Origin: Octopus vulgaris | Lineage: Eukaryota | Direction: 5' to 3' | NCBI GenBank assembly: GCA_951406725.2 | Contig: OX597819.1 | Location: 119,784,001-119,848,000, forward strand | Length of the DNA stretch: 64,000 nucleotides | Shown here: piece by piece, positions 49,063 to 51,598 of the stretch | How the letters are laid out: each line of letters starts with the position of its first letter | Position numbering within the stretch: the first letter of the stretch is position 1 | Position numbers: made by a program

Positions 49063-49582
49063 GAAACAAACAGACACAGAGATATACGCACATGTATGTA
49101 TACACATGTAAATGATCGTATGTATGTGTGTTTCAGTGGTGTATGTGTATGTGAGACTGTGTACAAGTCACATAGTCGAGCTGTTTGCGACTAACCCGGC
49201 AATTCATGGCTAGTGGTATATCGTCGGACAACCTGCAGGAGGAAAATCAAGGCCTGTCAAATGATGGCTGAATTCAATACGGTCAGTGGCCATCCAACTG
49301 CTGTGTATGGGAGACACCCAATCTTCGTTTAAATATCACTGTATGAAAAGGAAAACTCCGAGATAAAACCGACAACTTTGTTTGCATCCAATTATATAGA
49401 CATTTCTGCTTATCTACATTAGTTACATTATTTATATTTGACGGATATTTGTCCTCATCTTGTTTGTTGTTAACACACCGTTTGGGCTGATATACCTTCT
49501 AGCCCACGGGCATATGGCGTAGTGGTTAAGAGGGCGGGCTACTAACTCCAAGATTCCGAGTTCGATTCCAGGCAGTGACCTG

Positions 49583-49629
<47 letters not shown>

Positions 49630-51598
49630 CAACAACAACAACATCGAAAATACGTTCATTCGGTCATTCAATGATACCTGCGTGTGATCGGAAATTCAAT
49701 AAATTGGGTCAATGTGTTCCTCACAAACTTTCTGTGTCTAATCACGCGCAGAGAGTGAACGTGTGCTCTTCTTTGCTGTCACTTCTCACGAATGAACACA
49801 TTTTGGACAGAATTGTGACTGAAGACGAGAAATGGGTCCTCTATAAAGATTTCAAGCGCCGAAGACAGTGGGTAGGAAAAGGAGAAACACCTGCACACCA
49901 AGCTAAAAAAAAGGTCTTCACCCATGTAAGGTGTTATTATCAGTTCGGCGGGATATGAAAGGTTTGGTCCACTTTGAACTTTTAAACGCAAACTAAATGA
50001 TAACAAAGGAGTTCTACTGTGAGTAACTTGAGCTGCTTAAGTCAGCACGAGAAGAAAAACGACCCTCTTTGGTTTCAAGATGAAAGGTATTCTTCCATCA
50101 GGATAATGCTCTGCTACATACCGCAAGGATGACATTCCAAAGGCTGGTGCAGTTTGAATAGGAAACGATGTCCCACCCACCATATTTTCCGGACATTGCT
50201 CCATCTAATTATCATTTATTCCGCAGTCTTCAAAATCATTTGGACGGAGAAAAGTACGAAGTTTGTAGACGATATCCCAACAATACTGGAGGAATATTTG
50301 TCGTCACGGACAAGTGAATTTTGGAAGCAACCCCTTGCAAGTCTACCAGTTATATGGAAGAACATTGTAGAAAGCGAAGGAGAGTATATTTTTGATTATA
50401 AAGAAAATTTGTTTATTTTAATTTTGAAAAGTAAAAGTATTAAGGAAACGCATTACTTATGGGATGACCCAGTATATATATATATATATATTTATATAAA
50501 TTAATCCAAACAAGAAAACAAAAAGACAACAACGCAAGGATGTGGAACAAATAAAGTATTATTGGACGCTCAGGAAAGAAGGGAAGAAGGAGGGTTTGAC
50601 GTTTCGAGCGGAGCTCTTCGTCGGAAACATAGGAGAAGGAAAGATCCCGAGACGGGAGGACAGAGGAAAAAAATCGCCGGTGGTATTCACGAGGTCACAT
50701 ACTATATATAGGTATATGAATGTGTCTTCATAAAAACGAGTGGCCAGATGGCTAGGGTGTTGCAAAAGTAATTTTTCGATTCACGAACAGGGGAAGTCGT
50801 TGTATTTGTGAGGAAGTCACTTTATTGCACGCTGCTTCAGCCCAATCAGCTGTGAATGGAAAACATTGCGACGTACCAGGGTTCAGTATAGAGGCATAGT
50901 TGTAGAACTGTACTAGTCTCTAGTTTCTGTGAATTCAAGTACGTATATTTTAAGCAGAAATTCATAGAACCATATATTGTAATGGAATGAATGCCCATGG
51001 CTGTCTAGTTATCACATCACGTTCCAACCATGTGGTTTCGGGTTCGATCCCACTGCGTAACACCTTGAGTAAGGTTTTTCTATAGCCCTATGCCATCCAG
51101 ACTTGAGCGCCTGGAAAACGGAGTGGAATAATTCGGGAGCTACGGAAATGATTTACAATATCAGAAAGTCTAGTCTACAGTAGTGCTACTATTCATACAC
51201 ATATATACATATATGTACAGGTAGACACATATATGTGAGTAAAAATTTATGTACGTATGTATATTATCATTATTATCATAATTAGAAATTAGCTTGTAAC
51301 TTATGAATTTTATATAAAATATAAATATTTTCCTAACGGTAATTATAGAAATGCAGGTGTTCAACCATTCAGTGTTATACAAACACACACACACATTTAT
51401 AGACATTTATAGACGAGTGTATGTGTGTATCAATTTGTACGGCCGTATGTACATGTAGAATGGTGAAATACAAGAACACCTACAATTTTATATACATAAG
51501 GAGATAAAACGAAAGACAGGATTCCATATTATACATTTACATAAGAATATCAGGGCATAAGCATGAGAATCATAACTGTAAACATAATCCTCCATACG

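What the first reader, a model, noticed from the sequence alone, without database searches (positions are those of the whole stretch)
49425..49653. Same element with its own 3' end inverted onto its 5' end
Seen: an 80-bp antisense copy of the 3' tail, truncated inside HHR stem II, is fused directly to the first bases of the tRNA head. Known: inverted terminal pieces at the 5' junction are characteristic of PLE insertions and atypical of LINE-mobilised SINEs. Inference: independent support for PLE-type integration of this SINE.
Basis: partly seen in the sequence, partly recalled or inferred. Interest (0 to 1): 0.7.

Follow-up and report, generated by a model that had tools for sequence, protein, structure and literature searches.

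The report
SINE-like repeat with inverted tail
One copy of a short mobile repeat carries its own tail end flipped and joined to its front, an arrangement that fits copying primed from both DNA strands but that one locus cannot assign to a particular enzyme.

Summary
Window 49410-49504 is the reverse complement of the 3' tail of the only other copy of this element (25884->~25540, minus strand): 85 of 96 aligned positions, E 2e-24. One base later (49506) the head of the same element begins in forward orientation. It runs through an (AAT)n(AAC)5 stretch to 49651. Small corrections: the antisense piece is 95 bp, not 80. It stops at the outer foot of stem II, not inside it. The "tRNA head" has only box A/B-like motifs; ARAGORN and Rfam find no tRNA.

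No part of the element is present twice. 52 nt are missing, covering the linker and the CUGAUGA box. The forward half runs straight into a 5'-truncated mariner fossil, and there is no target-site duplication.

The intact copy carries a motif with every published feature of Penelope-type minimal hammerheads. The topology (3' end outward, break joined to the exact 5' end) points to a retrotransposition-coupled inversion with cDNA primed on both target strands. This agrees with Penelope-like (PLE) behaviour, and such inversions are very rare for L1-driven Alu (1 of 5554).

However, this is not the canonical PLE inverted-repeat structure. L1-style twin priming gives the same picture, and only two copies could be examined.

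The parts
49410..49504 (-). Inverted 3' tail fragment of the element (sense on the minus strand). Its 3' end points outward to the left and it is 5'-truncated at the foot of hammerhead stem II. It holds a degenerate stem II (49485-49490 and 49499-49504) and CAAAC in place of GAAAC (49480-49484). The CUGAUGA box is absent.
   Evidence: 85 of 96 identical to copy 1 positions 25638-25544; E 2.5e-24
49505..49505 (.). Single junction base (C) that belongs to neither homologous segment.
49506..49582 (+). Head of the element in forward orientation, starting at the same base (ACGGGCATATG) as copy 1. Box A-like TGGCGTAGTGG lies at 49515-49525 and box B-like GAGTTCGATTCC at 49558-49569. No tool detects a tRNA here.
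   Evidence: 64 of 70 identical; tRNA tests negative
49583..49651 (+). Internal (AAT)n with GAT interruptions, then (AAC)5 and ATCGAAAAT. This is the last part shared with copy 1; the forward copy ends here.
   Evidence: the 24-mer is identical in both copies and occurs twice in the window
49652..50475 (+). Right flank: a 5'-truncated, stop-ridden mariner-type transposase fossil that starts directly at the break. The element's linker, hammerhead and tail, which would be expected here, are absent.
   Evidence: tblastx to the mariner at 33318-33677 (E 3.7e-16); tblastn (E 6e-10); Pfam Transposase_1 E 0.05, below its cut-off
49195..49409 (.). Left flank. It has no detectable mariner homology and no other repeat in the window. 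It shares no k-mer of 5 or more with the right flank, so there is no target-site duplication.
25540..25884 (-). Reference copy 1, colinear and about 345 nt. Layout: head 25884-25808, (AAT)n(AAC)5ATCGAAAAT down to 25691, linker 25690-25647, minimal hammerhead-like motif 25650-25607 (CUGAUGA 25646-25640, extra A 25639, stem II 25638-25633 / 25624-25619, GAAAC 25618-25614, G-U-U 25613-25611, helix I ACAC/GUGU), tail down to about 25544. There is no TTTT on the sense strand.
25528..25537 (-). Downstream copy of the perfect 10-bp direct repeat CAATATCGAT flanking copy 1. The upstream copy is at 25895-25904. This is the candidate target-site duplication.
   Evidence: 84 of 5000 random 60-nt window pairs share a 10-mer. 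An overlapping imperfect 23-nt flank repeat also exists (10 of 1000 shuffles reach its score).

Best explanation
The locus is one rearranged copy of a roughly 345-nt composite SINE-like retroposon. The element consists of a Pol III-type head with box A/B-like motifs, an internal (AAT)n(AAC)5 stretch, and a 3' module holding a Penelope-type minimal hammerhead followed by a tail of about 70 nt.

The rearrangement most likely arose during integration, not afterwards. cDNA synthesis was primed on both strands of the cut target. One strand copied the 3' tail and stopped at the foot of stem II. The other strand produced a cDNA that ran to the very 5' end of the RNA. The two cDNA ends were then joined head to head. 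A Penelope-like (GIY-YIG) enzyme, which cuts and extends both strands, is the most likely driver.

The forward half now lacks its linker, hammerhead and tail. These were lost together with neighbouring DNA, which left the junction with the truncated mariner. Alternatively they were never copied, because the second primer started internally.

Shown: the topology, the exact junctions, the single representation of each part, the hammerhead-like motif, and GIY-YIG remnants in the window.
Inferred: the enzyme, the priming on both strands, and the order of events.
For: 1. Both halves match the only other copy, with similar divergence: head 64 of 70, tail 85 of 96. They lie 1 nt apart. No solo head or solo tail exists in the window, so they belong together.
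2. The forward half starts at the same base as copy 1. A full-length cDNA end explains this; a random DNA inversion breakpoint does not.
3. The inverted piece keeps the 3' end outward and is 5'-truncated. This is the geometry expected when the top strand primes, and the geometry described for PLEs (PMC8557442). PAc protein extends both strands (PMC11167929).
4. Copy 1's motif has CUGAUGA, an extra nucleotide before helix II, a G10.1-C11.1 pair, a 6-bp helix II, GAAA, a palindromic C-G at 15.2/16.2 with no loop 3, and a 4-bp helix I. These are the traits listed for PLE min-HHRs (PMC4209133). A descriptor built on those traits hits it, and hits nothing in 300 of 300 shuffles.
5. 5' inversion is very rare for LINE-driven short SINEs: Alu 1 of 5554 (PMC2912911).
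6. Two GIY-YIG-like ORFs lie in the window, with Atlas scores 0.95 and 0.96.
7. A second hammerhead-like short element in the window sits in a head-to-head palindrome.
8. There is no TTTT on the 345-nt sense strand, and the first TTTT lies 26 nt past the tail. This fits one Pol III transcript.
Against: - The forward copy has no tail, so the canonical PLE inverted-repeat unit is not present. An extra deletion or an internal start must be assumed.
- PAc starts reverse transcription at the same defined site on both strands, which predicts two tails.
- No target-site duplication flanks the composite.
- Rfam finds no hammerhead, either at gathering score or at E<=10.
- My descriptor was written after I had seen the motif.
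- No PLE with this tail is in the window, and Pfam does not call the GIY-YIG ORFs.
- A LINE with an (AAT)n 3' tail is present and could be an alternative driver.
- Copy 1 shows an ordinary 10-bp duplication and no inversion.
- Only 2 copies were examined.
Confidence: 0.5

Rival explanations
1. Classical twin priming on a single RNA, with the insertion oriented on the minus strand. The first strand was primed at the 3' tail on the left flank. The second target end annealed internally just after ...ATCGAAAAT and was extended to the RNA's 5' end. The 52 nt between the two cDNAs were lost at the inversion junction. Any TPRT enzyme, including a LINE, could have done this.
For: Each part of the element is present exactly once: positions 1-194 forward and 247-341 inverted, with 195-246 missing. 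This is the defining picture of 5'-inverted retrocopies (PMC2912911). The inverted segment ends at the exact 5' end, and no later deletion inside the element is needed. A LINE remnant with RT-family relatives and an (AAT)n tail lies in the window.
Against: No target-site duplication exists: no k-mer of 5 or more is shared between the flanks. [quoted passage not shown] The left flank is not mariner, so a target deletion of several hundred bp must be added. At most 1 nt of microhomology is visible at the inversion junction. Such events are very rare in short L1-driven SINEs (1 of 5554 Alu). The tail has no poly(A) or simple-repeat end.
Confidence: 0.15
2. Two separate insertions. A forward copy landed inside or beside an older minus-strand copy, which is self-targeting as reported for PLEs. 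A later deletion then removed the forward copy's 3' module, the rest of the older copy and part of the mariner.
For: PLEs tend to insert into or next to existing copies (PMC6765202), and Penelope endonuclease recognises its own tail region (PMC11167929). The locus clearly suffered at least one truncation, at the mariner junction.
Against: This needs three events. The two halves show nearly the same divergence from copy 1. The new copy would have to start within 1 nt of the old copy's break.
Confidence: 0.15
3. A DNA-level rearrangement after insertion (inversion plus deletion), or an assembly error, unrelated to the integration mechanism.
For: The locus is old (about 10% divergence), sits among microsatellites, and abuts a truncated mariner. 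No duplication is present to prove a clean insertion.
Against: One inversion breakpoint would have to coincide, within 1 nt, with the element's 5' end. The structure is not a palindrome of the kind that read artefacts produce.
Confidence: 0.1
4. The head-plus-(AAT)n unit and the hammerhead unit are two different elements that merely co-locate. For example, a LINE-driven (AAT)n-tailed SINE could sit beside a short PLE-derived fragment that prefers microsatellites. In that case nothing was inverted within one element.
For: Another tRNA-like head followed by (AAT)n(AAC)n and lacking this tail exists at 11600-11845. A LINE ending in (AAT)n is present. An insertion bias for microsatellites is reported for Naiad/Chlamys-type PLEs (PMC8557442).
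Against: 2 of 2 heads are adjacent to 2 of 2 tails, and neither occurs alone in 64 kb. Both copies share the non-repeat ATCGAAAAT after (AAC)5. A perfect 10-bp duplication brackets head-to-tail in copy 1. No TTTT interrupts the composite.
Confidence: 0.1

Closest known systems
Complex PLE insertion units: an inverted 5'-truncated copy abutting the 5' end (Evgen'ev & Arkhipova 2005 and Arkhipova 2006, as summarised in Craig et al. 2021, PMC8557442)
   Same: The inverted piece keeps its 3' end outward, is 5'-truncated, and lies directly against the 5' end of a forward copy. A hammerhead motif sits in the terminal module.
   Different: The forward copy has no 3' module, so no inverted repeat flanks the unit. 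There is no pseudo-LTR or partial tandem. The element is a non-coding element of about 345 nt with a Pol III-type head, not a PLE.
Twin-priming 5'-inverted L1, Alu and SVA retrocopies (Ostertag & Kazazian 2001, recalled; Kojima 2010, PMC2912911)
   Same: There are two segments of one RNA in opposite orientation. The inverted segment reaches the RNA's 5' end. A short internal stretch is lost at the inversion junction, and nothing is duplicated.
   Different: There is no target-site duplication, no poly(A) end, and no clear microhomology. Such events are almost absent from short L1-driven SINEs.
Schistosome Sm-alpha / Sj-alpha SINE-like retroposons with a hammerhead ribozyme (Ferbeyre et al. 1998 and Laha et al. 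2000, as described in PMC6765202)
   Same: A short non-coding retroposon apparently driven by Pol III that carries a type I hammerhead.
   Different: Those carry canonical, active hammerheads and often sit in tandem arrays. Here the motif is the minimal PLE type (no helix III), lies about 70 nt from the 3' end, and the two copies are dispersed. No sequence comparison could be made.
Metazoan non-LTR retrozymes, proposed non-autonomous derivatives of PLEs (PMC7761336; preprint 10.64898/2026.07.22.740005, abstract only)
   Same: A short hammerhead-bearing non-autonomous element whose likely helper is a PLE.
   Different: Retrozymes are tandem repeats reported to lack promoters and to act through circular RNA. 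This element has a box A/B head and an internal microsatellite, and it occurs singly. A circle-derived copy would be permuted, not inverted.

Membership tests
PLE-type complex insertion (inverted 5'-truncated copy plus forward copy) | The inverted copy retains the element's 3' end, pointing outward, and is 5'-truncated. | tested here: met
   49410-49504 equals the antisense of tail positions 247-341 of copy 1, with the 3' end at the left.
PLE-type complex insertion (inverted 5'-truncated copy plus forward copy) | The inverted copy lies immediately adjacent to the 5' end of a forward copy. | tested here: met
   One base lies between them (49505), and the forward copy starts at the same base as copy 1.
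PLE-type complex insertion (inverted 5'-truncated copy plus forward copy) | The forward copy is complete at its 3' end, so that inverted repeats flank the unit. | tested here: not met
   The forward copy ends at 49651 and is followed by a mariner fossil. No second tail exists anywhere in the window.
PLE-type complex insertion (inverted 5'-truncated copy plus forward copy) | A pseudo-LTR (partial tandem) and/or a 30-40 bp 'tail' extension. | tested here: inconclusive
   No tandem occurs at either copy. Copy 1's flanks show interleaved repeats, a 10-bp perfect one and a 23-nt imperfect one, which I could not resolve.
PLE-type complex insertion (inverted 5'-truncated copy plus forward copy) | An autonomous PLE in the genome shares the 3' module. 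| not testable with these tools
   No eukaryotic genome collection is available. The GIY-YIG remnant at 32723-33076 shares no similarity with the tail.
Twin-priming 5'-inverted retrocopy | Two segments of one RNA lie in opposite orientation, each part is present once, and there is a small loss or gain at the inversion junction. | tested here: met
   Positions 1-194 are forward, 247-341 inverted, and 52 nt are missing.
Twin-priming 5'-inverted retrocopy | A target-site duplication flanks the whole insertion. | tested here: not met
   No shared k-mer of 5 or more exists between 49365-49415 and 49640-49690.
Twin-priming 5'-inverted retrocopy | Microhomology at the inversion junction and at the 5' junction. 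| tested here: inconclusive
   At most 1 nt is visible at 49505. Any hidden overlap within ...GAAAAT cannot be seen without the empty site.
tRNA-derived SINE | A head related to a tRNA, shown by a cloverleaf or a tRNA model match. | tested here: not met
   ARAGORN finds none at default or at thresholds down to 70%. No Rfam tRNA match appears at gathering score or at E<=10.
tRNA-derived SINE | An internal Pol III promoter (box A and box B at tRNA-like spacing) and no internal TTTT terminator. | tested here: inconclusive
   TGGCGTAGTGG and GAGTTCGATTCC are visible in the sequence, but their consensus is recalled. There are 0 TTTT in the 345-nt sense strand, and the first lies 26 nt downstream. 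Transcription was not tested.
tRNA-derived SINE | Dispersed copies flanked by target-site duplications. | tested here: inconclusive
   Copy 1 has a perfect 10-bp repeat and copy 2 has none. Only 2 copies were examined.
Hammerhead ribozyme, minimal type I (PLE type; Cervera & de la Pena 2014) | [quoted passage not shown] | tested here: met
   Copy 1, 25650-25607. The descriptor hits it and hits nothing in 300 of 300 shuffles. The descriptor was written after I had seen the motif. The inverted fragment of copy 2 lacks CUGAUGA and reads CAAA.
Hammerhead ribozyme, minimal type I (PLE type; Cervera & de la Pena 2014) | A match to a curated hammerhead covariance model. | tested here: not met
   No Hammerhead family appears at gathering score or at E<=10 on 25400-26000.
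Hammerhead ribozyme, minimal type I (PLE type; Cervera & de la Pena 2014) | Self-cleavage, reported for this type to occur as a dimer. | not testable with these tools
   This needs an in vitro transcription and cleavage assay.

The most novel reading that the evidence does not exclude
The two copies belong to a so far undescribed family of Pol III-driven SINEs that have swapped the usual LINE-derived tail for the recognition module of a Penelope-like element (minimal hammerhead plus RT start region). The host is probably a cephalopod. On this reading the 5'-inverted copy is a direct genomic footprint of PLE priming on both strands acting in trans on a SINE RNA. That would make PLEs, not only LINEs, drivers of SINE amplification in such genomes.
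Probability: 0.35. Interest if true: 0.65.

Novelty: new member of a known kind. Interest (0 to 1): 0.42.

Why it matters
SINEs are textbook parasites of LINEs. Hammerhead-bearing SINE-like elements are known from schistosomes, and retrozymes have recently been tied to PLEs. A box A/B-headed SINE with a PLE-type 3' module, leaving PLE-like integration scars, would extend that link to another animal group. It would also offer a short, countable reporter of how PLEs integrate: priming on both strands, start sites, and the role of the hammerhead. This is still poorly understood, and only one in vitro system appeared in the papers I read. It could also help to classify SINE families that remain unclassified: 893 of the 900 recently active SINE families in a 2026 Octopus vulgaris annotation are listed as unclassified (PMC13282606). 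On present evidence this locus is a single suggestive case, not a demonstration.

Tried and rejected
- **Circular-RNA (retrozyme-like) origin.** Rejected, because a circle would give a permuted copy in the same orientation, not an inverted one.
- **Template RNA cut by the hammerhead.** Rejected. The inverted piece starts 27 nt upstream of the predicted cleavage site and includes all of stem II.
- **Insertion into an intact mariner.** The left flank shows no mariner signal by blastn or tblastx, by tblastn up to E 50 (only a 4-residue AVYG match), or by Pfam at E<=10.
- **Tail extending beyond 49410 / 25544.** Not significant: 938 of 1000 shuffles reach the score.
- **More copies in the window.** None found by blastn with word size 7 or by nhmmer --max. 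Weak head-only hits at 54097-54143, 36176-36207 and similar places (E 0.018 and worse) are other tRNA-like SINE heads.
- **Rfam hammerhead or tRNA.** No match.
- **Pfam on the two GIY-YIG-like ORFs and other ORFs.** Nothing for the GIY-YIG ORFs. Only the Atlas feature search supports them.
- **Taxon from the LINE ORF.** Relatives at 50-59% identity occur in coral, fish and shrimp and are uninformative. The GIY-YIG ORF's single hit is a UniRef protein of Octopus bimaculoides (64% identity over 63% of the query). That is a lead to the host group only.
- **Bacterial promoter/terminator scan.** Irrelevant for a eukaryote.
- **Collections not used.** Genome contigs holds only bacteria and archaea, and the phage, plasmid and E. 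coli collections were also not used. A genome-wide census therefore stayed unchecked.
- **Supplementary files.** None were opened. The supplementary hammerhead families of PMC4209133 and the PLE libraries of PMC8557442 could bear on whether this motif or its partner is already catalogued.
- **Literature searches.** Searches turned up no description of a box A/B-headed SINE with a PLE-type tail outside schistosomes. Subscription journals are not covered.
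Full report
**Setting.** The window is AT-rich (GC 0.30-0.39) and holds no N. It is crowded with microsatellites and eukaryotic transposon fossils:
- mariner/Tc1 fragments;
- a non-LTR reverse transcriptase C-terminus;
- two GIY-YIG-like ORFs.

The single sequence hit of one GIY-YIG ORF is a UniRef protein of Octopus bimaculoides. From memory, some repeats also look octopod-like. That is a lead only, and the organism was not established.

**The observation.** BLAST of 49380-49700 against the window gives two strong matches to one other place.
- 49506-49652 (+) matches 25884-25738 (-), E 3e-40.
- 49410-49504 (+) matches 25544-25638 (+), E 2.5e-24.

The place at 25.5-25.9 kb is a colinear copy on the minus strand (copy 1). 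Its order is head, then (AAT)n(AAC)5ATCGAAAAT, then a 44-nt linker, then CTGATGA-A-GGCTGA-loop-TCAGCC-GAAAC-GTT, then a tail of about 70 nt.

At 49.4 kb the tail therefore lies upstream of the head and in antisense. The junction is ...CTAGCC|C|ACGGGCATATG. The forward part shares with copy 1 an exact 24-mer ending at 49651 and then runs into unrelated sequence. Identities to copy 1 are 64 of 70 for the head and 85 of 96 for the tail. Neither BLAST nor nhmmer with --max finds a third copy of head or tail.

- The antisense piece is 95 bp, not 80.
- It ends at the foot of stem II, with both arms present and the CUGAUGA box absent.
- The head is not detected as a tRNA. Only box A/B-like motifs are visible.

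**Anatomy of the rearranged copy.** In copy 1 coordinates (25884 = position 1), positions 1-194 are present forward at 49506-49651. Positions 247-341 are present inverted at 49504-49410. Positions 195-246 (52 nt: the linker, CUGAUGA and the extra A) are absent. Nothing is present twice.

To the right, a mariner-type transposase fossil begins at the break. It lacks roughly its first quarter (tblastx E 3.7e-16; tblastn; Pfam only E 0.05). The left flank is not mariner by any test I ran. The two flanks share no k-mer of 5 or more, so there is no target-site duplication.

Copy 1 is bracketed by a perfect 10-bp repeat, CAATATCGAT (84 of 5000 random window pairs share a 10-mer). An imperfect 23-nt flank repeat overlaps it (10 of 1000 shuffles reach its score). 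I could not resolve that arrangement.

**Is the tail a Penelope-type module?** Rfam does not call a hammerhead. However, the motif in copy 1 shows every trait that Cervera and de la Pena list for the minimal hammerheads of PLEs (passages):
- a G10.1-C11.1 pair;
- a long helix II (6 bp here);
- a short helix I (4 bp);
- palindromic 15.2-16.2 with no loop 3.

The MFE fold forms helices I and II (z -2.7). A descriptor built on those traits finds this site, and finds nothing in any of 300 shuffles. The descriptor was written after I had seen the motif, which weakens that test.

In the lizard PLE studied in vitro, reverse transcription starts roughly 85-90 nt downstream of the hammerhead cut site, as derived from positions given. 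Here the element ends about 68 nt downstream of the predicted cut. The 345-nt sense strand has no TTTT, and the first one lies 26 nt past the tail. This fits one Pol III transcript covering head to tail.

**Mechanism.** The geometry has three features: the tail's 3' end points outward, the truncated end is joined to the exact 5' end of a forward segment, and both halves are of similar age. This is what results when both strands of a cut target prime cDNA synthesis.
- A post-insertional inversion would need a breakpoint that coincides with the element's first base.
- A circular-RNA route would give a permuted copy, not an inverted one.
- A template cut by the hammerhead would start 27 nt further downstream.

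I see two variants of priming on both strands.

(i) The PLE pattern, with two cDNAs each started at the 3' module. This gives an extra inverted 5'-truncated copy next to a complete forward copy (PMC8557442). It is supported by in vitro extension of both strands (PMC11167929). It requires a later deletion that removed the forward copy's 3' module and part of the mariner. Such a deletion would also explain the missing duplication.

(ii) Twin priming on one RNA (PMC2912911). This explains at once why each part is present only once and why 52 nt are missing. But it predicts a flanking duplication, which is absent, and it needs a target deletion to explain the non-mariner left flank.

I cannot separate the two variants with one locus.

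**Which enzyme?**
For a PLE:
- the hammerhead-type module;
- the rarity of 5' inversion in LINE-driven short SINEs (1 of 5554 Alu and 4 of 477 SVA, against 639 of 2068 L1);
- the GIY-YIG remnants in the window;
- a second hammerhead-like short element at 54573-54962 that forms a head-to-head palindrome with its 3' ends outward.

Against a PLE:
- no PLE in the window shares the tail;
- Pfam is silent on the GIY-YIG ORFs;
- a LINE with an (AAT)n tail is present;
- the other copy looks like an ordinary insertion;
- the sample is 2 copies.

**Comparison with known systems.** The closest known systems are:
- PLE complex insertions;
- twin-priming inversions;
- schistosome Sm-alpha/Sj-alpha hammerhead SINE-like elements (PMC6765202);
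- metazoan retrozymes, proposed as PLE dependants (PMC7761336; preprint abstract).

The locus fails one defining feature of the PLE unit (no complete forward copy) and one of twin priming (no duplication). I therefore file it under neither. I describe it as working like a product of priming on both strands.

My literature searches found no box A/B-headed SINE with a PLE-type tail outside schistosomes. Subscription journals and supplementary files were not covered.

**Verdict.** The inference is partly supported: the locus is consistent with PLE-type integration and moderately favours it, but it is not diagnostic. I class it as a new member of a known kind, with moderate interest.

Noticed in passing
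window 54573-54962: A palindrome of about 385 bp: inner arms 54637-54773 / 54781-54917 are 99% complementary and outer arms 95%. Read outward, each arm carries CTGATGA-GAAGGC...GTCTTC-GAAAC. The left arm continues with ATAT-GTC|GAGA and satisfies a type I hammerhead descriptor (helix III of 1-2 bp with a palindromic AUAU loop). The right arm has a 19-nt deletion there. The 3' ends point outward and the left end abuts (TA)n. There is no Rfam hit and no other copy in the window. It has the same head-to-head topology as PLE inverted copies.
   Followed up: partly
window 32723-33076 (-): A 117-aa ORF with a GIY-YIG-like sequence: Atlas feature score 0.95, with clusters in which 42-63% of members carry PF01541. 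Pfam itself is silent. It is probably the endonuclease remnant of a 5'-truncated Penelope-like element. Its only sequence hit is a UniRef protein of Octopus bimaculoides (64% identity over 63% of the query). It has no similarity to the SINE tail.
   Followed up: partly
window 1825-2268 (-): A second GIY-YIG-like ORF of 147 aa, preceded by a Cys-rich stretch. Atlas scores are 0.95-0.96, and one cluster is named GIY-YIG domain-containing. It could be an N-terminal-endonuclease PLE (Naiad type); this was not tested further.
   Followed up: partly
window 8450-9662 (-): The C-terminal part of a non-LTR reverse transcriptase ORF (zf-RVT E 8e-5; 184 longer relatives at E<=1e-10, with RVT_1 in most of the 120 listed). 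Its 3' UTR of about 80 nt ends in a long (AAT)n run at 8450-8566. It is therefore a LINE with an (AAT)n tail that could drive (AAT)n-tailed SINEs in this genome.
   Followed up: partly
window 11600-11845 (-): A different tRNA-like head (GGAGGCGCGTGGCTTAGTGGTTAGAG...) followed by (AAT)n(AAC)n(AAT)n and an unrelated tail. This shows that head-plus-(AAT)n units exist without the hammerhead module.
   Followed up: no
window 25505-25545 and 25890-25930: The flanks of copy 1 share three blocks (a 10-mer, a 9-mer and a 7-mer) in different order. A perfect 10-bp repeat is interleaved with an imperfect 23-nt repeat. This is either a pre-existing tandem duplication in the target or a complex junction.
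   Followed up: partly
window 54085-54230 and 51000-51100: Further tRNA-like SINE heads of other families (GGTTCCGAGTTCAGTCCCACTGCG... and GGTTTCGGGTTCGATCCCACTGCG...), the first flanked by TA repeats.
   Followed up: no
window 50473-50520 and 61198-61238: A short repeat (83% identity, opposite strands) begins right after the mariner fossil's 3' end. It belongs to an unidentified element that also spans an ORF at 61000-61305.
   Followed up: no
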